From a phage, in sequence record PV730301.1: a stretch of 44,881 nucleotides of DNA. One strand, given 5' to 3'. The translations under genes were made by a program, and so were the position numbers. Positions 2,575 through 30,899 of this stretch are shown here, one piece after another; positions within the stretch are counted from its first letter, which is position 1, and every line of letters starts with the position of its first letter. Under the pieces are notes generated by a model. That model had not been told where the DNA came from. It saw only the letters and a program-made list of their open reading frames with translations, and searched no databases.

Positions 2575-2987
2575 TGGGCTACTTTGAGGACTTAACAAAA
2601 GCGTTTGATGTGCCGCTGGTAGCCTTCGGAACCGCCAACGGCATCAAGGTTGCTCTTGAAAACATCGACGCGCCGACGTCAACCAATACACCGTATCTGG
2701 CAAGTTACATGTTACTTGCGGACACCGAGCAGGCGGATTTGTTCTTCACGGAACAACGCGCTGGTGTCTATCAGGTAGATATTAACTACGCATCGGCGAA
2801 AGGTAGCGCGCCAATCAATAAAATGGCAGACTTACTTAACACGGCGTTTAAAGCAGGTAAGTCATTTTCACGTAACGACATCTGCGCCGAGGTTCAATCG
2901 GTTAGCCTGGGGCCGCTGATTGTAGAAAACGGATGGGCCAAACGACCATTGTCAATTAACTTTATTGCATTCACCAAGAGGCTGTGA
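2574..2987 (+). CDS. putative tail completion/terminator protein
   Basis: Position immediately before the major tail protein; AAGGTGA RBS. Confidence 0.4.
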   Translation: MGYFEDLTKAFDVPLVAFGTANGIKVALENIDAPTSTNTPYLASYMLLADTEQADLFFTEQRAGVYQVDINYASAKGSAPINKMADLLNTAFKAGKSFSRNDICAEVQSVSLGPLIVENGWAKRPLSINFIAFTKRL

Positions 2988-2989
2988 AT

Positions 2990-4156
2990 ATGGCTACAAC
3001 TCCTTTTAAGGGCGCGAATACCGCGCAATTCTATGTGGCGGAAGTGACCCCGGGCGTAACACCGGATAACCCGGTATGGTCGCCGTTGCGCAATACGGGC
3101 GGCGTTCCCGCCATTACCCGCGACACGCTGACCTCTAACGAACTGGACGGCAGCCGTGAAACCACATCCATCCGCACCGGCAACAAACAGGTTAGCGGGG
3201 AATACGCTATCGAGCTTAGCTCTAAAAGTCAGGACGACTGGTTAGCTGGGGCTTTAGGCTCTACGTGGCAATCCGGGGTTTCTCTGTCCGATCTGTCCAT
3301 TACCGTCGCACCGGCAGGCAAGACGTTTACCCGCGCGGATGGTAGCTTCATTACGGACGGCGTTGAAGTAGGCGACCTGATCGCGTTCACCGACTTAACG
3401 GGCGACAACGCTAAACCGTTCATCGTAACCGAGGTAAGTGCGACTGTTGTCACCGGTGCCGGTATCCAACATACTCTGACCACCGAGACCGTAACAACCG
3501 ACGCTAAAACCGGCGACAAACTGGAAACTGGTAACGCGTGTAAGACGTTCTCTATCCTCACCTGGTACAAAGGCCAGTGCGGCGGGGCCGACGCGTACAC
3601 GCTAACCAAAGGCGTGGAAGTTTCTGGTTTCACTGTTGAGCAGGCGGTCAACGCGATGGTAACTGGCAGTTTCCCGTTCATCGGCCGCAGCCAGGAGATT
3701 CTCACCACGCCGCCGACGGGTTCTGATTTCTCCTCTGTTACGTTTGGTGACGAGCCATTCTCCTCCGTCGACGTTTCCGTGTTCGACGGCTCTACGCCGT
3801 TGCGTTGTGACAGCCTGACCATCACCAACGACAACAGCGCGTCCGCACAGTTCGAACTCGGTAATACTAACGTAGCGTTTGTGGAACGTAGCCGCGCGGC
3901 TAACACCTTCTCCATCTCCGGTAAGCTGTACGACATGGCTATGATTCAGAAGTTTATCAACGAACAGCAGGTAGAGATTAACTCTATTCTGGCGGGGGTA
4001 AACGGGGCTATGTCTTTCAGTTTAAAACGCGCGGAGCTTACGGCGGTTACCCCAGAAATATCTGGCCCGGAATCGATTACCCAAAGTATAGAAGGGCAGT
4101 CCACAGGCAACCAGTACCAGTCGTCCATTACTATCCAGCGTATCACCTACGCATAA
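2990..4156 (+). CDS. putative major tail (tube) protein
   Basis: 388 aa, last gene of the neck/tail block, followed by a strong terminator; start taken at ATG 2990 (AAGAGG RBS) rather than the GTG at 2984. Confidence 0.5.
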   Translation: MATTPFKGANTAQFYVAEVTPGVTPDNPVWSPLRNTGGVPAITRDTLTSNELDGSRETTSIRTGNKQVSGEYAIELSSKSQDDWLAGALGSTWQSGVSLSDLSITVAPAGKTFTRADGSFITDGVEVGDLIAFTDLTGDNAKPFIVTEVSATVVTGAGIQHTLTTETVTTDAKTGDKLETGNACKTFSILTWYKGQCGGADAYTLTKGVEVSGFTVEQAVNAMVTGSFPFIGRSQEILTTPPTGSDFSSVTFGDEPFSSVDVSVFDGSTPLRCDSLTITNDNSASAQFELGNTNVAFVERSRAANTFSISGKLYDMAMIQKFINEQQVEINSILAGVNGAMSFSLKRAELTAVTPEISGPESITQSIEGQSTGNQYQSSITIQRITYA

Positions 4157-4161
4157 AACTA

Positions 4162-4184
4162 AGGCCCCGAAAGGGGCCTTTTTC
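4162..4184. terminator. rho-independent terminator (bidirectional position)
   Basis: AGGCCCC-GAAA-GGGGCCT hairpin followed by TTTTT; sits between convergent plus and minus operons. Confidence 0.7.
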
Positions 4185-4361
4185 TTACTCACTTTTGAAT
4201 GGCATTTCATAGAAGTTAGTTAACTGGCCCAGGCCACTCCGTTCTGCCATTTCTTTTGAGGCCTCTTCCTTGCTACCGACCGCATAAATATCAACCCACT
4301 CATCCCATTCTTCGTCGTATACACGGATTACATATATTGTTTTCATAATATTTTCACTCAT
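4185..4361 (-). CDS. hypothetical small acidic protein (58 aa)
   Basis: ATG with AGGAG 8 nt upstream; ATGA overlap with the upstream gene stop; the six-frame track begins at a TTG further upstream. Confidence 0.4.
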   Translation of the reverse strand: MSENIMKTIYVIRVYDEEWDEWVDIYAVGSKEEASKEMAERSGLGQLTNFYEMPFKSE

Positions 4362-4584
4362 CAATGTTACTCCTGTACTCCCGTAACTTCTCCAGACTTT
4401 CAATTGCTTCTGCTAAGTCGGTTCCGGTGTCCTTGTGCCCGCGAAGGCCCATACACAATAGCTTCTTCAATGCGTGCTGTAGTGCCGGGTCGCGGATATC
4501 GAAAGCACGGAGAACATCGTAAACGTCTACTGTCATAGTGCTGCCGTGAGTGTTCGTCATTGTGCGGTTGTATTTATTTGTCAC
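4354..4584 (-). CDS. DUF3310-like phage protein
   Basis: YDVLRAF...ALQHALKKLLCMGLRGHKD...DLAEAIESL pattern recalled as DUF3310-like; start codon uncertain (GTG or internal ATG). Confidence 0.45.
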   Translation of the reverse strand: MTNKYNRTMTNTHGSTMTVDVYDVLRAFDIRDPALQHALKKLLCMGLRGHKDTGTDLAEAIESLEKLREYRSNIDE

Positions 4585-4774
4585 TGTTAACTCTCTTAAA
4601 TCGGGCTATGCCCGACTCGTTAATGTTGCCTATTTCAAAGAAGCTGCGATATTTAGGCGAATACATTCTTACGTCGCCATTCTCGAGGGTGATCCCTCCA
4701 TATACAGCACCTACTTCGAATCCATTTTTCTCCGCGTACGGACTCACATCGGTGCATTCATACATATCTTTCAT
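4574..4774 (-). CDS. hypothetical protein
   Basis: ATGA overlap with the upstream phosphoesterase gene (translational coupling). Confidence 0.45.
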   Translation of the reverse strand: MKDMYECTDVSPYAEKNGFEVGAVYGGITLENGDVRMYSPKYRSFFEIGNINESGIARFKRVNSDK

Positions 4775-5901
4775 CCCAGCATCTCCGGTGAAATAGTTAA
4801 ACGTGCGACCTCACCATATTCGGCGCTATAAGTAATTACGTTCGCACTACGGCCAGACATCCATCCGCCGCGGGAGGCGTAGGCGTCTTTAGCCGCTAAA
4901 GTGCGGTGTTGCTCAACAATCATGTTACGGCTTTCTACAATCTTTTGGTGGTGCAGGTGGCCTACGTGGGCGTAGCTGTAAACGCTCTCGCCGAACGCTT
5001 TGCGGAACTTAGCAATCATAACCGGTTCGATAGCGTCGAAGCGTGCTTTATGCCCGTGGTGAAAGAACAGGGTCGTTTTGCCGTGTTGCACCATCTTGTA
5101 AACATCCGGCGACGTGTCGACGATCACTCGGCTGTCTTTTGAGTATAAAGTCGTGAACATTTCCGCCAACCACACAGACCCTACAGGGTCGTGATTTCCT
5201 TGCACGATAAGCAAGCGAACATTTTTGTGTTTAACCAGCGCCATATCAACAACACGGCGGACCATACGAATCATGTAGCGGACAAGTTTCTGGTAGCGAG
5301 TGTCTGCGTCCAACACATGGCGCGACTCAGGGGTGACGGCATCCAGACTATCGAAGTGCGCGAAGTCCCCAAGCAGGTTAATAACTCCTGTTCCCGCGTC
5401 CGGTGCTTTCTGAAACGCAGCATCAAACCAGCGAGAGAACAGGTCTTCCGCAATCTTCATGTCCCAGTCGTCGCCGCTCTCATCGGCCCATGCCAGCATA
5501 CCGAGATGAAAATCAGATACAGTGTAAAGATTGAGTAGTTTATCGTCACGTTTGGCTCGAACGGCTTTAACAGGCGCAACGGGCGTAATCTCTGATTTCA
5601 TGCCTTCAATTACGGCTTTCATCAACTCGACCTGACGTTCGGCATCGGTGTCGGTCTTAACCCATTGCAACTTAGTGTTGCCGAACTCGTCCACAAGCGA
5701 CGACGTGCCTTTAATCTTGTAGCCGTCTGGTACGAGGTGGCTGACGTCCCGCCCGTGACCTACTCCTTTCTTAGCCAGCTTCGCTTTACGGATACGAATA
5801 ACGCGGTCTGAGATGCCGTATTTACGGGCGATGTCGATAATCTTTGTTCCGGCGTTCAATTCTTCCTGCAACTGTTCGTCGGTTATTTTCTTCCTGGCCA
5901 T
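4771..5901 (-). CDS. N-terminal HTH domain fused to a calcineurin-like metallophosphoesterase (phosphatase or nuclease)
   Basis: Motifs DFH, GDFAHFD, GNHD, HHGH and GHLHH match the metallophosphoesterase signature; N-terminal IIDIARKYGISDRVI is HTH-like; GAGGA RBS. Confidence 0.7.
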   Translation of the reverse strand: MARKKITDEQLQEELNAGTKIIDIARKYGISDRVIRIRKAKLAKKGVGHGRDVSHLVPDGYKIKGTSSLVDEFGNTKLQWVKTDTDAERQVELMKAVIEGMKSEITPVAPVKAVRAKRDDKLLNLYTVSDFHLGMLAWADESGDDWDMKIAEDLFSRWFDAAFQKAPDAGTGVINLLGDFAHFDSLDAVTPESRHVLDADTRYQKLVRYMIRMVRRVVDMALVKHKNVRLLIVQGNHDPVGSVWLAEMFTTLYSKDSRVIVDTSPDVYKMVQHGKTTLFFHHGHKARFDAIEPVMIAKFRKAFGESVYSYAHVGHLHHQKIVESRNMIVEQHRTLAAKDAYASRGGWMSGRSANVITYSAEYGEVARLTISPEMLG

Positions 5902-5938
5902 GCTTATTCCTCGTGCTTAGGATTTGTCCTATACTAGC

Positions 5939-6130
5939 TCACTTCTCTTTGACATTCGAGTTGCAAGCCCAGATTAAAATAAATACCCACGGCAGCAGAA
6001 TCCAGCCAAGAAACAGGTTGGCCATGAATATCGCTAACTTCGCTTTATGGTCGCGGAAATACGCAACCAGGAAAGGCGCAAAATAGGCTAGTAGTGCAAA
6101 CAGAATTAGGGAAACTGGTAAACTGGACAT
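5939..6130 (-). CDS. Imm-like superinfection immunity membrane protein
   Basis: YFAPFLVAYFRDHKAKLAIFMANLFLGWILLPWVFILIWA matches the superinfection-immunity (Imm) pattern; AAGGAG RBS before the ATG at 6130. Confidence 0.6.
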   Translation of the reverse strand: MSSLPVSLILFALLAYFAPFLVAYFRDHKAKLAIFMANLFLGWILLPWVFILIWACNSNVKEK

Positions 6131-6160
6131 TTTAAACTCCTTCATTGTTGGTGTAAGTGA

Positions 6161-6189
6161 ATAGTACCCTATTATATTGGGGTGCGCAA
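6161..6189 (-). promoter_or_regulatory. sigma70-like promoter for the Imm/phosphoesterase operon (TTGCGC-17-TACTAT) containing the conserved TGAATAGT..CTATTATA element
   Basis: Hexamers and 17-bp spacing read from the sequence; the 23-mer is identical to 41997..42019. Confidence 0.45.
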
Positions 6190-6296
6190 GTAGTGTGCTA
6201 GAATAAGTTTGCGCCTAGTGTCGCACACGAAAAGCGGGTGGTTCCCGTCTGGCGCATTAACCTTAACCTGTAACCTCTTAACCAAAGGATTAAAGA

Positions 6297-6713
6297 ATGA
6301 AACTTTCTGATTTTTATTTCGAAGAGAAAGCACTGGTGGGCAAGAAGATGCCTATTCTCCTGCCAAATGGCGAAGACTCAGGTGAGTGGCTTAACGTCGT
6401 AAGTCCTGACGCCGATGTCGCCGTTAAAGCAGGGCGTGCTTTCATTATCGCGTACCGCCGTGGGCTGGCGCGTTTTGAAGAACTGGAAAAGGCCGCCAAA
6501 GAATCCGGCGACTATACTGAATATAACCTGGCGGTTAACGAACTGGCTGAAGACCTCAACCGACAACTCGCGGCGGAAGTCGTAAACGGCTGGAGCTTTG
6601 ATGAGCCTTTCTCTAAAGAAGCATTTAACAAATTGCTGGGCCAGTTCAAGGCATTAGGGACACAGGTGGCCGCGTTCCATAACGCCGAGCGCAAAGCATT
6701 ACAGGAAAAGTAG
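6297..6713 (+). CDS. tail assembly chaperone (gpG-like)
   Basis: Position immediately upstream of the tape measure gene; AAAGGA RBS; overlapping -1 frame ORF downstream. Confidence 0.5.
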   Translation: MKLSDFYFEEKALVGKKMPILLPNGEDSGEWLNVVSPDADVAVKAGRAFIIAYRRGLARFEELEKAAKESGDYTEYNLAVNELAEDLNRQLAAEVVNGWSFDEPFSKEAFNKLLGQFKALGTQVAAFHNAERKALQEK

Positions 6714-6745: not shown

Positions 6746-7078
6746 GTGGATAAGCATAAAATCAGAGAGTTTGATTCTATAGCCGACGGACACGAACAGG
6801 CGCTTATCGCGATGGGTGTAATCGATAAGAAAAAACGTGCAGCGCGACGGGGTGGGCCAGAATGCCCGCCCCTTTTTATATCCACCTTTGAGACGTACTG
6901 TGACATTAAGTTTACGCGACACGTGCGTGAGGACGCTGTAGTATTGTTTGCAAGAGAATCTGTTACGTGGCAAGACCTGAAAGCCTATCTCGATGTTACG
7001 CAAAAACAGCTTAGCCTGTTCGAGATAGACATTATCATGGGCTTAGAAGCAATCTTTGAAGGTAGAAATCATGGCTGA
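6746..7078 (+). CDS. putative frameshift extension of the tail assembly chaperone (gpT-like)
   Basis: ORF in the -1 frame, open from 6683 and overlapping the chaperone 3' end; no own SD; ends inside the tape measure start. Confidence 0.35.
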   Translation: MDKHKIREFDSIADGHEQALIAMGVIDKKKRAARRGGPECPPLFISTFETYCDIKFTRHVREDAVVLFARESVTWQDLKAYLDVTQKQLSLFEIDIIMGLEAIFEGRNHG

Positions 7079-19440: not shown

Positions 19441-19956
19441 CTAGCCCCCGTGATTCTCATGAAAGCCGTAGCGAACAATCGCAGATTTCCGTGCACAAGC
19501 CGCGTCAAATATATTGTCATAGTGGCCCAGGAATATAAGTCTACCGTCAACGAATATCCCTGCTTTCCATTTAGCCGCCCGTGCGTTCCAGTGCACACCA
19601 GTGAGACCTGACTTGTTATCTTTTCTGCGAGATGCGTTTCGGTTATTATCAGTACGGGATACTTTCCGAAGGTTGCATGCACGATTATCATCCAGGATAT
19701 GATTTATATGGTCTACTTCATCATCAGGCCCTAAACGGTCATTGTTATACATCTCCCATGCGATACGATTAGCCCTGTAACTAACCCCTCTGACGACGAT
19801 ACATATGTAGCCCCTCTTACTTGGACTACCGGCTTCGTCTCCGGCGTTTATACTGTGTCTCGGGGAATACTTCCATCGTATCTTCCCCGTGTCAGGTTCG
19901 TAGTAGAAATGGTCATGCCAATTAATTAAATCTCTCATAAACCACCCCATCATCAT
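19441..19956 (-). CDS. HNH homing endonuclease
   Basis: HINHILDDNRACNLR HNH motif; overlaps the DNA polymerase stop. Confidence 0.7.
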   Translation of the reverse strand: MMMGWFMRDLINWHDHFYYEPDTGKIRWKYSPRHSINAGDEAGSPSKRGYICIVVRGVSYRANRIAWEMYNNDRLGPDDEVDHINHILDDNRACNLRKVSRTDNNRNASRRKDNKSGLTGVHWNARAAKWKAGIFVDGRLIFLGHYDNIFDAACARKSAIVRYGFHENHGG

Positions 19957-24527: not shown

Positions 24528-25021
24528 TTCTCGGCTCCGTTAACTGTAAATCCGTATTTAATTTCGGCTTGCCTACGAGCCTTAGCCGCGTTCTCTAACT
24601 TATTGTAAGCCCCTAAATAAATTGGCACCCCGTCTACATAAATTCTGGCAACCCACTTACCAGAGCGTTTATGAAACCCAACGCCTTTAACACCCGAAGT
24701 ATTGTCAGTACGTATGTTTGTGCCGTGTGCGATACTACCTCGACGCATTTTTATAAGATTTTCTATTCTGTTATCAGTTCTATCTTTATTTTTGTGACGA
24801 ATTACTTCCCCTTGCGCCATTGGCCCGTTAAACATCTCCCAAACAACGTGGTGGATAAGTTTAGTAGCGCCGTTAAAACGTAGTATTTTAAATTCACTCC
24901 CATCGTTATCCACCCTCGTACTACCAGCTTCTTGCCCTATTTTTACAGATTTTGACGGGCTTATTTTCCAAAACAATTTCCCTGTGACAGGGTCATAGTC
25001 AAACAGTTCATGCCAATTCAT
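24524..25021 (-). CDS. HNH endonuclease
   Basis: HKNKDRTDNRIENL HNH-like motif; ATGA overlap with the upstream gene. Confidence 0.65.
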   Translation of the reverse strand: MNWHELFDYDPVTGKLFWKISPSKSVKIGQEAGSTRVDNDGSEFKILRFNGATKLIHHVVWEMFNGPMAQGEVIRHKNKDRTDNRIENLIKMRRGSIAHGTNIRTDNTSGVKGVGFHKRSGKWVARIYVDGVPIYLGAYNKLENAAKARRQAEIKYGFTVNGAEK

Positions 25022-28680: not shown

Positions 28681-28914
28681 TTATTCCAGGTCTTCTAAAG
28701 TGGCCGTCATTCCGCGAACTTCAGCAACGGCACTATATTTCCCGCCAACATTTTTCACGACACCGGATTTAACCAGTACACGTAACGACCCTTCAATGAT
28801 GGCGGAACTATAGTACTTAAAATAACTACGGCGCAAGTCGATAACGCTGCACGACCCTTTTTTACGTGTTAACGAAACGACCGCCGTAAATACGCGTGAC
28901 TGGAACTCGGTCAT
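28681..28914 (-). CDS. hypothetical protein with C-terminal TLEDLE tail
   Basis: ATGA coupling to the upstream AlpA-like gene. Confidence 0.5.
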   Translation of the reverse strand: MTEFQSRVFTAVVSLTRKKGSCSVIDLRRSYFKYYSSAIIEGSLRVLVKSGVVKNVGGKYSAVAEVRGMTATLEDLE

Positions 28915-29081
28915 TTCACGTTCTCCTTAATCCACGCTTCCACTTTCTCCGGGTCGAACGTACCTGGCTGGCGGCGGCCCATAATGCGAATACAACAATC
29001 GGGGAACTTCCCACTCTTTAACCAGTTATTCAGTGTGCGGCGAGTAACCCCGATACGCTCAGCTACTTCATTCTGTGTCAT
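28911..29081 (-). CDS. AlpA/excisionase-family HTH regulator
   Basis: MTQNEVAERIGVTRRTLNNWLKSGKFP matches the AlpA-type HTH; start placed at ATG 29081. Confidence 0.6.
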   Translation of the reverse strand: MTQNEVAERIGVTRRTLNNWLKSGKFPDCCIRIMGRRQPGTFDPEKVEAWIKENVK

Positions 29082-29113
29082 TCTCAAACCCCCATTATCA
29101 GTTAACGAAACCA

Positions 29114-29142
29114 AGTATACATTGTGAATAATGGGAAATCAA
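29114..29142 (-). promoter_or_regulatory. sigma70-like promoter (TTGATT-17-TATACT) for the AlpA-primase operon
   Basis: Hexamers read from the sequence; spacer carries an ATTATTCACA variant of the conserved element. Confidence 0.45.
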
Positions 29143-29511
29143 ACATAATCGCACCTATTGACATTATGAAAATCTTCGTTTAAGGTGCTTCTGTATCTTA
29201 GTTACTTTGATTCCTGTTCACCTTGTAAGAATGTTTAACCCGTGCGTCAAGCAAAGGGTTAAACACAGGCTTACTGAACATTCGAATTATCGTAACTTTC
29301 CTTCCTTAGTATCTCAGGTTGCCCTGGGCAAGCTCTATTCTCATCGGCAGCTTATCTCTTAAGTATCTGATTTTCTTAATGTGCCGTAGATTCGCAACCG
29401 TAAAAATGTAACGATTATTGGGCAGGCTTAAGGCCTGCCCTTTAGTTACCAAGTAATAAGAATAAAGGCACAACCATCCCTGAAAAATCACAACGGCAAC
29501 GTAACCATCTC

Positions 29512-29540
29512 TTGCACACCCCGACATAATAGGATACTAT
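29512..29540 (+). promoter_or_regulatory. sigma70-like promoter (TTGCAC-17-TACTAT) with the conserved element
   Basis: Hexamers read from the sequence; same architecture at 30871..30899. Confidence 0.5.
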
Positions 29541-30521: not shown

Positions 30522-30722
30522 ATGAGCGAGTGGGTTAAGTGCCGCGACAGGATGCCGGAATGTTTTACGGATGTGCTGGTTTCTGACGGTTCCTATGTAG
30601 AAGTTATGACGCTGCTTGGCGACGGCACCTGGCTTGCGCTGCTGGGGGATTGGGCTACATGTGTTTCTGTTGACAGGATAACTCACTGGATGCCGTTACC
30701 CGAGCTGCCACCCCCGGTATAA
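30522..30722 (+). CDS. DUF551-like protein
   Basis: W..C.D..P....VLV.DG......HWMPLPELPPP pattern typical of DUF551; AGAGGA RBS. Confidence 0.55.
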   Translation: MSEWVKCRDRMPECFTDVLVSDGSYVEVMTLLGDGTWLALLGDWATCVSVDRITHWMPLPELPPPV

Positions 30723-30790: not shown

Positions 30791-30870
30791 TTTTGTTCTA
30801 TTTCACCAAACGCAACAATCGAAGCGACTATTGCAGGAGATGAAACAATACAAACACCAATAAAATTTAC

Positions 30871-30899
30871 TTGCACACCTGGATATAATAGCCTACTAT
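30871..30899 (+). promoter_or_regulatory. sigma70-like promoter (TTGCAC-17-TACTAT) with the conserved element
   Basis: Hexamers read from the sequence. Confidence 0.5.

What the first reader, a model, noticed from the sequence alone, without database searches (positions are those of the whole stretch)
4157..6296. Early minus-strand operon (Imm-like protein, HTH-phosphoesterase, DUF3310-like) inserted inside the tail gene cluster
Seen in sequence: the major tail gene (ends 4156) and the tail chaperone gene (starts 6297) are separated by a 2.1-kb minus-strand operon with its own promoter (6161..6189) and a terminator at 4162..4184. It encodes an Imm-like superinfection immunity membrane protein, an HTH-metallophosphoesterase fusion and three small proteins. 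Inference: an accessory host-takeover or superinfection-exclusion module carried as a moron inside the structural module.
Basis: partly seen in the sequence, partly recalled or inferred. Interest (0 to 1): 0.5.

Follow-up and report, generated by a model that had tools for sequence, protein, structure and literature searches.

The report
Antisense accessory operon between tail genes
A backward-facing, early-promoter operon sits between the tail-tube and tail-chaperone genes of this Kagunavirus-type coliphage; it encodes a superinfection-immunity membrane protein, a DNA-binding metallophosphoesterase and three small proteins, and it is real but an ordinary, already annotated feature of its phage subfamily, with end genes swapped like cassettes.

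Summary
Five tightly packed minus-strand genes (4185-6130) lie between the tail tube gene (ends 4156) and the tail assembly chaperone gene (starts 6297). They are bounded by a conserved promoter (6161-6190) and a conserved bidirectional hairpin terminator (4161-4180).

Kagunavirus and Jerseyvirus relatives carry the HTH-metallophosphoesterase (MPE) antisense at this junction in 48 of 61 loci examined. Cornellvirus keeps the MPE elsewhere but still has a small secreted-protein gene in the slot.

The MPE is a core gene, found in 2036 phage records including T1. Its GC content matches the genome. Only the first gene and the 3' cargo behave like morons. The first gene is Imm here; in relatives it is a signal-peptide protein, a 2-TM protein or an HK97 gp15/YebO-like protein. 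The 3' cargo makes up 20 architectures.

"DUF3310-like" is true at fold level only. The same promoter module heads the early region, which supports early expression.

Novelty is low: identical architectures are already annotated in GenBank.

The parts
2984..4156 (+). Tail tube gene (left flank of the slot)
   Evidence: Pfam Phage_tube_2, E 1e-38; phrog_290.
4161..4180 (.). Bidirectional hairpin terminator, shared by the tube gene (plus strand, followed by TTTTTCTT) and the antisense operon
   Evidence: Found by the scan on both strands. Fold dG is -16.3 and -19.2 kcal/mol, z -3.8. AAGGCCCC-N4-GGGGCCTT is conserved right after the tube stop codon in 50 of 51 distinct relatives, whatever gene lies beyond it.
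4185..4358 (-). orf57, small acidic soluble protein of unknown function; last cargo gene
   Evidence: ORF listed. Eight distinct homologues at 56-93% identity, none with an internal stop, present in only some relatives. No Pfam, PHROG, NCBIfam or PADLOC match. GC 0.40.
4354..4584 (-). orf76, a stand-alone copy of a widespread phage domain with a DUF3310 / T7 gp1.7-like fold
   Evidence: phrog_2452, E 9e-37. 3587 representative clusters, with the domain fused at the N- or C-terminus of many proteins. No Pfam family, DUF3310 included. AF2 pLDDT 91.8. BFVD: close homologues are fused to DNA ligase or phosphodiesterase; remote hits are SaV-like, DUF3310 and nucleotide kinase. Third-codon-position excess of variable sites, 27/17/71. 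Never co-occurs with the PNK+ATPase cassette.
4574..4774 (-). orf66, small soluble protein of unknown function; cargo gene
   Evidence: ORF. 92-97% identical copies in a subset of relatives only. Variable sites by codon position 7/3/13. No family match. GC 0.43.
4771..5901 (-). HTH-metallophosphoesterase (376 aa); the constant core gene of the operon
5939..6130 (-). Imm-family superinfection immunity protein (63 aa, two transmembrane helices); first gene
   Evidence: Pfam PF14373, 47.2 bits against cut-off 27.9; phrog_1039, E 7e-24. Hydrophobic segments at 4-22 and 34-52. 366 phage records, including T4-like myoviruses annotated 'immunity to superinfection'. Codon-position variation 22/8/46. 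Replaced by other envelope proteins in relatives.
6161..6190 (-). Promoter of the antisense operon: -35 TTGCGC (6189-6184), 17-nt spacer, -10 TACTAT (6166-6161)
   Evidence: Both hexamers are conserved across Kagunavirus, Jerseyvirus and others while the spacer varies. The same module lies at 29511-29540(+) and 30870-30899(+) in the early region; 4 matches against 0.16 expected.
6196..6204 (+). Candidate extended -10 (TGcTAGAAT) of the divergent promoter for the TAC / tape-measure operon
   Evidence: TGnTA is conserved in the alignments. It would start transcription at about 6210, the first base of the RNA motif. Inference only: the scan did not list it.
6207..6272 (+). Conserved structured RNA element resembling Rfam int-alpA: an outer stem enclosing two hairpins, in the leader of the TAC gene
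   Evidence: RF02996, 31.3 bits (gathering 35.8), full-length match, E 0.011 for the whole window. My own covariance model finds exactly one copy, in TAC sense, 35-90 nt upstream of TAC in 60 loci. 93% of cells are paired and 6 pairs show changes on both sides, against 29-60% paired in the slid controls.
6258..6283 (+). Four (T/G)TAACC repeats between the RNA element and the TAC ribosome-binding site
   Evidence: Read from the sequence. The AACC cores are invariant. One relative (L007) has an extra repeat unit. Function unknown.
6297..6713 (+). Tail assembly chaperone gene (right flank of the slot)
   Evidence: Pfam Phage_TAC_4; phrog_15027, E 5e-70.

Best explanation
This is the resident accessory-gene slot of Guernseyvirinae siphophages, not a one-off insertion.

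Anatomy. A compact divergent control region (6131-6296) lies upstream of the tail chaperone gene. From it, a host-RNA-polymerase promoter of the phage's early class fires backwards into a short operon. The operon ends at the hairpin that also terminates the tail tube gene.

First position. It is reserved for a small envelope protein, here an Imm-family two-helix inner-membrane protein. Inferred: this protein is made early and blocks DNA entry of superinfecting phages, as T4 Imm and HK97 gp15 do.

Second gene. In Kagunavirus and Jerseyvirus this is always the HTH-metallophosphoesterase, a core enzyme with an intact di-metal active site. Inferred: it is a DNA-directed phosphodiesterase or nuclease that acts on host or replicating DNA. 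The variable downstream genes fit nucleic-acid or nucleotide phosphate chemistry: a DUF3310-fold domain here, a HAD phosphatase plus P-loop kinase in K1G.

3' end. It is a cassette site recombining exactly at the MPE stop codon. In this window it holds orf66, orf76 and orf57.

Other strand. The same control region carries the promoter and a structured int-alpA-like leader for the chaperone / tape-measure operon.

Shown: the anatomy, its conservation, the cassette behaviour, the promoter class and the folds. Inferred: expression timing, the exclusion phenotype and the MPE substrate.
For: - Coordinates and families.
- Synteny: 48 of 61 non-redundant loci carrying both tube and TAC have the MPE antisense between them, in 20 architectures. 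PNK+ATPase and orf76 are mutually exclusive, and the swaps occur at the MPE stop codon. GenBank records DUEC01, K1G and Bas74 show the same layouts.
- Slot without the MPE: Cornellvirus Shemara and other relatives still keep an antisense small secreted or membrane protein in the slot.
- Alternative first genes: a phrog_14165 signal-peptide protein, a 2-TM protein, and a YebO-like protein 41% identical to HK97 gp15. Per PMC3594210, gp15 is an inner-membrane exclusion protein encoded by a moron between the chaperone and tape-measure genes.
- Promoter: phylogenetic footprint and repeats of the module at the early region.
- Terminator conservation.
- GC: MPE 0.515, close to the genome's 0.509; Imm, orf66 and orf57 at 0.40-0.44.
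- MPE: active-site invariance and fold; spread over 2036 records.
- Precedent: a stand-alone early phage MPE that degrades host DNA, mycobacteriophage Gp48 (PMC12287305).
- orf76: fold, and fusions to ligase or phosphodiesterase.
Against: - No experiment bears on any protein of this operon.
- The only transcriptome of a Kagunavirus (K1B4, PMC12645636) puts the Imm gene in its 'late' class, together with DNA polymerase and methylases. That study uses long, multi-cycle time points and does not separate strands in the text I could read.
- The -35 hexamer is weak (3 of 6), and the consensus scan did not list this promoter.
- No PDB relative is detectable by sequence.
- The set of loci is biased, because most were found through the MPE itself.
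Confidence: 0.62

Rival explanations
1. The whole 2.1-kb block is a horizontally acquired moron, dispensable and recently inserted into the tail module of this phage. It provides exclusion or host takeover.
For: The block has its own promoter and terminator. Its mean GC of 0.483 is below that of its neighbours. Imm is classed as a moron-type gene in PHROGs. More distant relatives have only 0.35-1.2 kb between tube and TAC.
Against: The MPE is present at this position in every Kagunavirus/Jerseyvirus-type locus examined. It has genome-typical GC. It is conserved in full length, HTH included, in 2036 phage records down to 25-45% identity. The control region and terminator are conserved even where the slot is nearly empty. 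The slot is therefore ancestral; only its end genes come and go.
Confidence: 0.1
2. The operon's core purpose is nucleic-acid end healing or nucleotide salvage rather than DNA destruction. The MPE would act as a 2',3'-cyclic phosphodiesterase / 3'-phosphatase or a dNMP-producing exonuclease. It would work with the kinase and phosphatase cassettes (K1G type) or the gp1.7-like orf76 domain. The outcome would be repair of RNA or DNA cut by host defence nucleases, or recycling of host DNA into dNTPs.
For: In 17 loci the MPE is followed directly by a HAD-type phosphatase annotated as polynucleotide kinase and by a P-loop kinase-like protein. That cassette and orf76 never co-occur. The orf76 fold resembles DUF3310 / T7 gp1.7-type nucleotide kinases and PNK-annotated proteins, and its close homologues are fused to DNA ligase and phosphodiesterase. 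From established knowledge: the Clostridium thermocellum Pnkp healing enzyme uses a calcineurin-type phosphoesterase domain, and T7 gp1.7 feeds dNMPs from host DNA breakdown into dNTP pools.
Against: No ligase gene lies in or near the operon. orf76 is only 76 aa, too short to be a kinase by itself. The HTH argues for a double-stranded DNA target. Many relatives carry the MPE with no kinase-related partner at all (the SP>MPE and MPE-only architectures).
Confidence: 0.2
3. The HTH-MPE is primarily a regulator or an anti-signalling enzyme. Its HTH might bind the conserved divergent control region (for example the TAACC repeats) to time the switch between the antisense operon and the tail operon. 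Alternatively, its phosphoesterase might remove protein phosphates or hydrolyse cyclic-nucleotide defence signals.
For: Several GenBank records call it a transcriptional regulator or a winged-HTH protein. There is a weak PHROG match to a late transcriptional activator over residues 3-36. Relatives carry Pfam HTH_1 or HTH_50 at the N-terminus. Rv0805, a cyclic-nucleotide phosphodiesterase, is among the best Foldseek hits. Conserved repeats of unknown function lie next to the gene's own promoter.
Against: In T1, Dhillonvirus and Cornellvirus the gene lies far from any such control region, and the RNA and repeat element is absent from T1 and Dhillonvirus loci. Strict conservation of all catalytic residues shows that the enzyme activity, not only DNA binding, is selected. 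There is no PADLOC or anti-defence family match.
Confidence: 0.08

Closest known systems
Same locus in published Guernseyvirinae genomes (K1G ORF18-21, NC_027993; vB_Ec_DUEC01, PQ799475; SonjaBuckley Bas74, PQ850627)
   Same: Tail tube gene, then an antisense operon ending with the MPE and Imm genes, then the TAC gene. DUEC01 has exactly the window's five-gene order at 89.6% nucleotide identity over the whole 4.3 kb. K1G and Bas74 share Imm and the MPE.
   Different: K1G carries a polynucleotide-kinase-type phosphatase plus an ATP-binding protein in place of orf66/orf76/orf57. Bas74 carries orf76 only. Annotations of the MPE disagree: DNA repair exonuclease, DNA polymerase II small subunit, transcriptional regulator, oxidoreductase.
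HK97 gp15 moron (Cumby et al. 2012; reviewed in PMC3594210)
   Same: A small inner-membrane superinfection-exclusion gene with its own expression signals, embedded in the tail operon next to the chaperone gene. A gp15/YebO-like protein (41% identity over 34 aa, E 2e-10) occupies the very same slot in Klebsiella-phage relatives of this window.
   Different: HK97 gp15 lies between the chaperone and tape-measure genes, on the same strand, in a temperate phage, and is expressed from the prophage. Here the slot lies between tube and chaperone, is antisense, belongs to a phage group described as virulent, and the window's occupant is of the Imm family, not YebO.
T4 Imm (Pfam PF14373, Imm_superinfect)
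   Same: Family membership by HMM above the curated cut-off, small size, two transmembrane helices. tblastn reaches T4-like myovirus genes annotated 'immunity to superinfection'.
   Different: 63 aa, in a siphophage. The exclusion phenotype and its specificity are untested. From my own knowledge, T4 Imm acts on T-even DNA entry and works together with Sp.
Phage T1 ST16 and other phrog_704 'DNA repair exonuclease' proteins
   Same: Full-length homologue with the same HTH + linker + MPE architecture (44% identity over 375 aa).
   Different: In T1 it lies in the non-structural region near the lysis genes. In Dhillonvirus it lies just upstream of the small terminase gene. None has a demonstrated activity that I could find.
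Mre11 / SbcD nucleases and the wider calcineurin-like metallophosphoesterase superfamily
Mycobacteriophage A10ZJ24 Gp48 metallophosphoesterase (PMC12287305)
   Same: A stand-alone phage MPE with the five motifs, expressed early. It has phosphodiesterase activity, damages host genomic DNA and so disables host defences. This is the best experimental precedent for what the window's MPE may do.
   Different: Its relatedness beyond the superfamily level was not tested here. That paper mentions no HTH domain. The host and the phage group are different.
DUF3310 / SaV-like / T7 gp1.7-type nucleotide kinase domain
   Same: The orf76 model (pLDDT 91.8) matches BFVD models with these names at Foldseek probability 1.00, TM 0.6-0.72 and 19-24% identity.
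   Different: E-values are only about 0.02. No Pfam DUF3310 match for orf76 or for any of 61 relatives, even at E 1. orf76 belongs to its own large sequence family (phrog_2452; 3587 clusters).
Rfam RF02996, int-alpA RNA motif
   Same: Full-length match with the same three-helix layout and shared sequence blocks (GCGCCUAG ... CGAAAAGCGGG ... CCCG-CUGGCGC), on the plus strand.
   Different: Score 31.3 is below the gathering score of 35.8. The U-rich tail of the consensus is replaced by TAACC repeats. The context is upstream of a tail chaperone gene, not an integrase or alpA gene.

Membership tests
Imm_superinfect (Pfam PF14373; T4 Imm family) | Match to the family HMM above the curated gathering score | tested here: met
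   47.2 bits against 27.9, E 2e-12, covering 41 of 42 profile positions. phrog_1039 'immunity to superinfection', E 7e-24.
Imm_superinfect (Pfam PF14373; T4 Imm family) | Small protein with two membrane-spanning helices | tested here: met
   63 aa. Hydropathy peaks at 4-22 and 34-52 (Kyte-Doolittle, 19-residue window).
Imm_superinfect (Pfam PF14373; T4 Imm family) | Blocks DNA entry of superinfecting phage | not testable with these tools
   Needs plasmid expression and efficiency-of-plating or DNA-injection assays.
Calcineurin-like metallophosphoesterase superfamily | Five conserved metal-binding and catalytic motifs (DxH, GD, GNH[D/E], H, GHxH) | tested here: met
   D130-F-H132, G178-D179, G235-N236-H237-D238, H282-G-H284 and H312-V-G314-H315-L-H317. 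All are invariant or nearly so in 59 sequences down to 40% identity.
Calcineurin-like metallophosphoesterase superfamily | Match to Pfam Metallophos or Metallophos_2 above the gathering score | tested here: not met
   22.3 bits against 27 (Metallophos_2) and 17.1 against 21.5 (Metallophos). This is a divergent member that the curated thresholds do not capture.
Calcineurin-like metallophosphoesterase superfamily | MPE fold | tested here: met
Mre11/SbcD DNA repair nuclease (the usual database label) | Specific structural similarity above other MPE subfamilies, a capping domain, and a Rad50/SbcC partner | tested here: not met
DUF3310 (Pfam PF11753) for orf76 | Match to the family HMM | tested here: not met
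   No hit at E<=0.1 for orf76. No hit at E<=1 in any of 62 family members scanned.
DUF3310 (Pfam PF11753) for orf76 | Same fold | tested here: inconclusive
   BFVD models named DUF3310, SaV-like and nucleotide kinase match at TM 0.6-0.72 and probability 1.00, but at E about 0.02 and 19-24% identity.
Moron (sense of Juhala et al. 2000, as summarised in PMC3594210) | Own promoter and terminator | tested here: met
   Conserved promoter at 6161-6190 and hairpin at 4161-4180. These are sequence-level predictions, not mapped transcripts.
Moron (sense of Juhala et al. 2000, as summarised in PMC3594210) | GC content differing from the surrounding genes | tested here: inconclusive
   Met for Imm (0.443), orf66 (0.428) and orf57 (0.402). 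Not met for the MPE (0.515) or orf76 (0.489), against a window mean of 0.509.
Moron (sense of Juhala et al. 2000, as summarised in PMC3594210) | Extra DNA that is absent from otherwise similar relatives | tested here: inconclusive
   True for orf66, orf57, Imm (replaced by other genes) and orf76 (alternates with PNK+ATPase). False for the MPE within Kagunavirus and Jerseyvirus (48 of 48 loci). The whole MPE part is absent from the slot in Cornellvirus and in VLCpiS11a-like phages.
int-alpA RNA (Rfam RF02996) for 6208-6272(+) | Covariance-model score at or above the gathering score | tested here: not met
   31.3 bits against 35.8. No relative reaches the gathering score either.
int-alpA RNA (Rfam RF02996) for 6208-6272(+) | Conserved secondary structure supported by covariation | tested here: met
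   15 pairs in 3 helices, 93% of cells paired, 6 pairs with changes on both sides in 28 distinct sequences. Slid controls give 29-60% paired, and 0 of 500 shuffles reach the covariation score (also on an independent MAFFT alignment).

The most novel reading that the evidence does not exclude
The 166-bp control region, not the protein genes, may be the interesting object. It is a back-to-back promoter pair. The plus-strand transcript would start exactly at a covarying int-alpA-like three-helix RNA followed by TAACC repeats.

That RNA could be a cis-acting leader needed to express the chaperone, tape-measure and distal tail genes after the strong tube terminator. It might act as an antitermination, stabilising or protein-binding element, possibly recognised by a phage HTH protein. 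This would give the orphan int-alpA motif its first defined functional context. It would also explain why an antisense early operon is tolerated at this one junction throughout the subfamily.
Probability: 0.15. Interest if true: 0.55.

Novelty: already known. Interest (0 to 1): 0.22.

Why it matters
For this window it mainly corrects the picture. The block is a standard subfamily feature with a fixed core and exchangeable ends, so it should not be flagged as an unusual insertion.

Three practical points follow:
1. Phages of this group are described as virulent and are used or proposed for therapy. They routinely carry exclusion-type membrane proteins from at least four unrelated families at one hot spot. 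This may shape cocktail compatibility.
2. The HTH-metallophosphoesterase is conserved in more than 2000 phage genomes. It is labelled inconsistently (DNA repair exonuclease, DNA polymerase II small subunit, regulator, oxidoreductase) and has no known function. The evidence here supports only "active metallophosphoesterase with a DNA-binding domain".
3. A structured RNA of a family with no assigned role sits at a defined place in a small, engineerable phage genome, which makes it easy to test.

Tried and rejected
- orf76 as a truncated remnant of the K1G-type ATPase. I raised this because PHROG matches fall on the C-termini of longer 'ATPase' families. Rejected: BLASTP finds no alignment to K1G gp20, and orf76 is a self-standing, widely fused domain. 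orf66 compared with K1G PNK shows no similarity.
- Sequence searches of the MPE against PDB chains, both as a single sequence and as a profile, gave nothing usable. The same holds for the orf76 profile.
- NCBIfam gave nothing meaningful for any block protein. PADLOC defence models gave no hits. Pfam and PHROGs gave nothing for orf66 or orf57.
- Pfam scans of ten long orf76-domain fusion proteins identified none of the partner domains.
I solved this by a third homologue search with a distant-only profile.
- The AlphaFold-database library was not available for the orf76 fold search, so BFVD was used instead.
- Rfam at gathering thresholds found nothing in the window or in ten relatives.
- Folding of the whole 101-nt leader is no more stable than its shuffles (z -0.09). 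Support for the RNA therefore rests on covariation and the Rfam match, not on energy.
- The hairpin GCGGGAACCACCCGC+TTTTC, read on the minus strand as a terminator, was set aside. It lies upstream of the minus-strand promoter, and its G-U pairs fit the plus strand.
- The scan's own minus-strand promoter (6157-6129) was rejected because it overlaps the Imm start codon.
- The literature gave no functional study of this block. The supplements of the paper describing int-alpA are not held.

Full report
**What the window is.** The 4.3 kb around the finding matches 452 phage records. The best matches are Escherichia phages of the genus Kagunavirus (subfamily Guernseyvirinae) at 88-92% nucleotide identity. 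vB_Ec_DUEC01 covers 100% of the query. This is therefore a Kagunavirus-type siphophage genome.

**Checking the observation.**
- The plus-strand ORF 2984-4156 is a tail tube protein, and 6297-6713 is a tail assembly chaperone.
- Between them, GC skew turns negative and five minus-strand ORFs are packed with short overlaps.
- The first is Imm. It is best started at the ATG at 6130, which has an AAGGAG ribosome-binding site. It passes the curated Pfam threshold for the superinfection-immunity family and has two hydrophobic helices.
- The 376-aa protein is phrog_704 at E 8e-162 but only sub-threshold for the Pfam metallophosphoesterase models.
- An alignment of 59 relatives down to 40% identity keeps every residue of the five metallophosphoesterase motifs.
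- An AlphaFold model (pLDDT 77.9) shows a three-helix N-terminal domain, a beta hairpin and an MPE core.
- The three small ORFs are real genes by conservation. For orf66 and orf76, variation is concentrated at the third codon position.
- The hairpin at 4161-4180 is strong on both strands.
Two independent results support it nevertheless. CTTGC(A/G)C and TA(C/T/G)TAT are conserved 17 nt apart across Kagunavirus, Jerseyvirus and other relatives while the spacer changes. The same module occurs four times in the window against 0.16 expected. Two near-identical copies (29511-29540 and 30870-30899) lie in intergenic DNA at the head of the plus-strand cluster of small genes, next to the AT-rich divergent region. 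That places the operon in the phage's early promoter class, though no transcript has been mapped.

- I collected 73 IMG/VR loci through the MPE and 32 through the chaperone, plus GenBank records, and located all genes by tblastn.
- After removing duplicate contigs, 61 loci hold both tube and chaperone genes. 48 of these have the MPE antisense between them, in 20 different gene orders.
- The MPE is the constant element.
- The first gene is Imm in most loci. In others it is a 107-110-aa signal-peptide protein (phrog_14165).
- Downstream of the MPE there are several alternatives: a HAD phosphatase plus P-loop protein (the K1G arrangement), orf76 alone (Bas74), orf66+orf76, an HNH endonuclease, an anti-repressor, and orf57 present or absent.
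- The phosphatase/kinase pair and orf76 never occur together, and the exchanges begin at the MPE stop codon.
- The window's own order (Imm, MPE, orf66, orf76, orf57) is already deposited and annotated in DUEC01.
- The 13 loci without the MPE in the slot come from more distant relatives (tube 66-75% identical). They include Cornellvirus (Shemara, FSL SP-031) and Klebsiella phage VLCpiS11a-like genomes.
- These still have 0.35-1.2 kb between tube and chaperone. In the eight such intervals inspected, that space holds an antisense small envelope protein: the signal-peptide protein, a two-helix protein, or a single-helix YebO-like protein.
- In Shemara the MPE gene lies antisense in the head module instead. 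In T1 and Dhillonvirus it lies in yet other places.
- Base composition agrees with this picture: MPE 0.515 against 0.509 for the window, and Imm, orf66 and orf57 at 0.40-0.44.
- Conclusion: the slot, its control region and its terminator are ancestral; the MPE is a core gene that lodges there in two genera; only the end genes behave as morons.

**The first gene.**
- The YebO-like occupant in the Klebsiella-phage relatives is 41% identical over 34 residues to HK97 gp15.
- HK97 gp15 is the founding example of a moron. It lies in the tail operon next to the chaperone gene, inserts into the inner membrane and blocks genome entry of superinfecting phage (PMC3594210).
- With the T4 Imm family in the window, two of the four alternative occupants belong to families with a proven exclusion member. 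All four are small envelope proteins.
The phenotype itself is untested.

**The metallophosphoesterase.**
- tblastn finds it in 2036 phage records, almost always full length with the N-terminal domain.
- Relatives carry Pfam HTH_1 or HTH_50 at the N-terminus.
- The database names 'DNA repair exonuclease' and 'DNA polymerase II small subunit' are therefore generic fold echoes.
- I think a DNA-directed phosphodiesterase or nuclease is the most likely function. The reasons are the DNA-binding domain, the strictly conserved catalytic site, and the precedent of mycobacteriophage Gp48, an early MPE that degrades host DNA and thereby disables host defences (PMC12287305).
- A role in end healing or nucleotide salvage, together with the exchangeable kinase, phosphatase or orf76 partners, is the main rival.

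**orf76 and 'DUF3310-like'.**
- It is not a fragment of the K1G ATPase.
- It is a roughly 65-residue domain found in 3587 representative clusters, alone or fused at either end of other proteins.
- Pfam does not recognise it. None of 62 members hits DUF3310 even at E 1.
- Its model (pLDDT 91.8) matches close homologues fused to a DNA ligase and to a phosphodiesterase. More remotely (E about 0.02, TM 0.6-0.7) it matches models named SaV-like, DUF3310, nucleotide kinase and polynucleotide kinase.

- The intergenic DNA (6131-6296) is conserved well beyond the promoter.
- Rfam reports a full-length, sub-threshold match to the int-alpA RNA motif at 6208-6272 on the plus strand: 31.3 bits against 35.8, E 0.011 for the whole window.
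- A covariance model built from 14 relatives finds exactly one copy per genome. It is always in chaperone sense, 35-90 nt upstream of the chaperone start. It occurs in 60 loci including Cornellvirus, and is absent from T1, Dhillonvirus and VLCpiS11a-type loci.
- The three helices are 93% paired, and six pairs change on both sides. Slid controls give 29-60% pairing. An independent MAFFT alignment gives the same answer.
- G-U pairs fit the plus strand.
- A conserved TGnTAGAAT (6196-6204) would start transcription at the first base of the motif. Four (T/G)TAACC repeats (6258-6283) follow it, before the ribosome-binding site.
- This looks like the structured leader of the chaperone / tape-measure operon, which needs its own start after the tube terminator. 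Its function is unknown. Overall folding energy is unremarkable.

**Evidence that cuts the other way.** The only Kagunavirus transcriptome I found places the Imm gene in a 'late' class, together with DNA polymerase and methylases and apart from the structural genes (PMC12645636). Its time points span 5-120 min, so it does not settle timing. It does suggest that Imm is not co-expressed with the tail genes.

**Verdict.**
- The object is a known, annotated feature of Guernseyvirinae genomes. Interest is low for the block itself.
- The cassette logic of the slot, the unassigned core phosphoesterase and the int-alpA-like leader are modest leads worth a note.

Noticed in passing
window 6207-6272 (+); also one copy upstream of the TAC gene in 60 related loci (e.g. 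L005 2625-2677, L112 13677-13729): A conserved three-helix RNA structure resembling Rfam int-alpA (31.3 bits, below the gathering score of 35.8) lies in the leader of the tail chaperone gene. It has 6 covarying pairs, and its G-U pairs fit the plus strand.
   Followed up: yes
window 29511-29540 (+), 30870-30899 (+), 28810-28837 (-): Further copies of the block's promoter module (CTTGCAC...TACTAT). Two are near-identical and intergenic in the early region. The third lies inside ORF 28681-28914 and may be a chance match.
   Followed up: partly
window 6258-6283 (+): Four (T/G)TAACC repeats lie between the RNA element and the TAC ribosome-binding site, with invariant AACC cores. Locus L007 has one extra unit. 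They may be a protein-binding site.
   Followed up: no
L061 7001-8125 and L005 3001-4125, compared with window 4771-5901: Mosaic MPE alleles. The first roughly 100 residues (HTH and linker) are nearly identical to the local type, while the catalytic domain is only about 55-59% identical. This indicates recombination inside the gene at the domain boundary.
   Followed up: partly
window 4169-4172 and the same hairpin in relatives: The terminator loop occurs as GAAA or as its complement TTTC (also GTTT, TTCC) in otherwise identical hairpins. This is what flipping of the palindrome by recombination would produce.
   Followed up: no
L007-L079 (e.g. L008, L013, L018): Strong mosaicism around the slot. 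MPE genes 95-98% identical to the window's lie next to chaperone and tape-measure alleles only 45-57% identical, so the slot is a recombination boundary between tail-gene alleles.
   Followed up: partly
window 6297-6713 and 6746-7078: The two chaperone ORFs correspond to the pair annotated in K1G and Shemara as a programmed-frameshift product (joined CDS). I did not look for the slippery site.
   Followed up: no
window 19447-19926 (-) and 24539-25021 (-): Two stretches 35-36% identical to the HNH endonuclease that occupies the cargo position in some relatives. This suggests that homing-type endonucleases are scattered in the early region.
   Followed up: no
window 28911-29114 (-) and 30522-30722 (+): A small HTH_17/excisionase-type DNA-binding protein lies next to the AT-rich divergent control region. 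A DUF551 protein lies in the early small-gene cluster. Either could be a regulator of the shared promoter class.
   Followed up: no
L112 (Salmonella phage Shemara) 4308-5441 (-): In Cornellvirus the MPE gene is again antisense and has its own annotated terminator, but it lies inside the head module, between a head-morphogenesis-associated gene and the spanins. The gene therefore repeatedly lodges backwards within late operons.
   Followed up: partly
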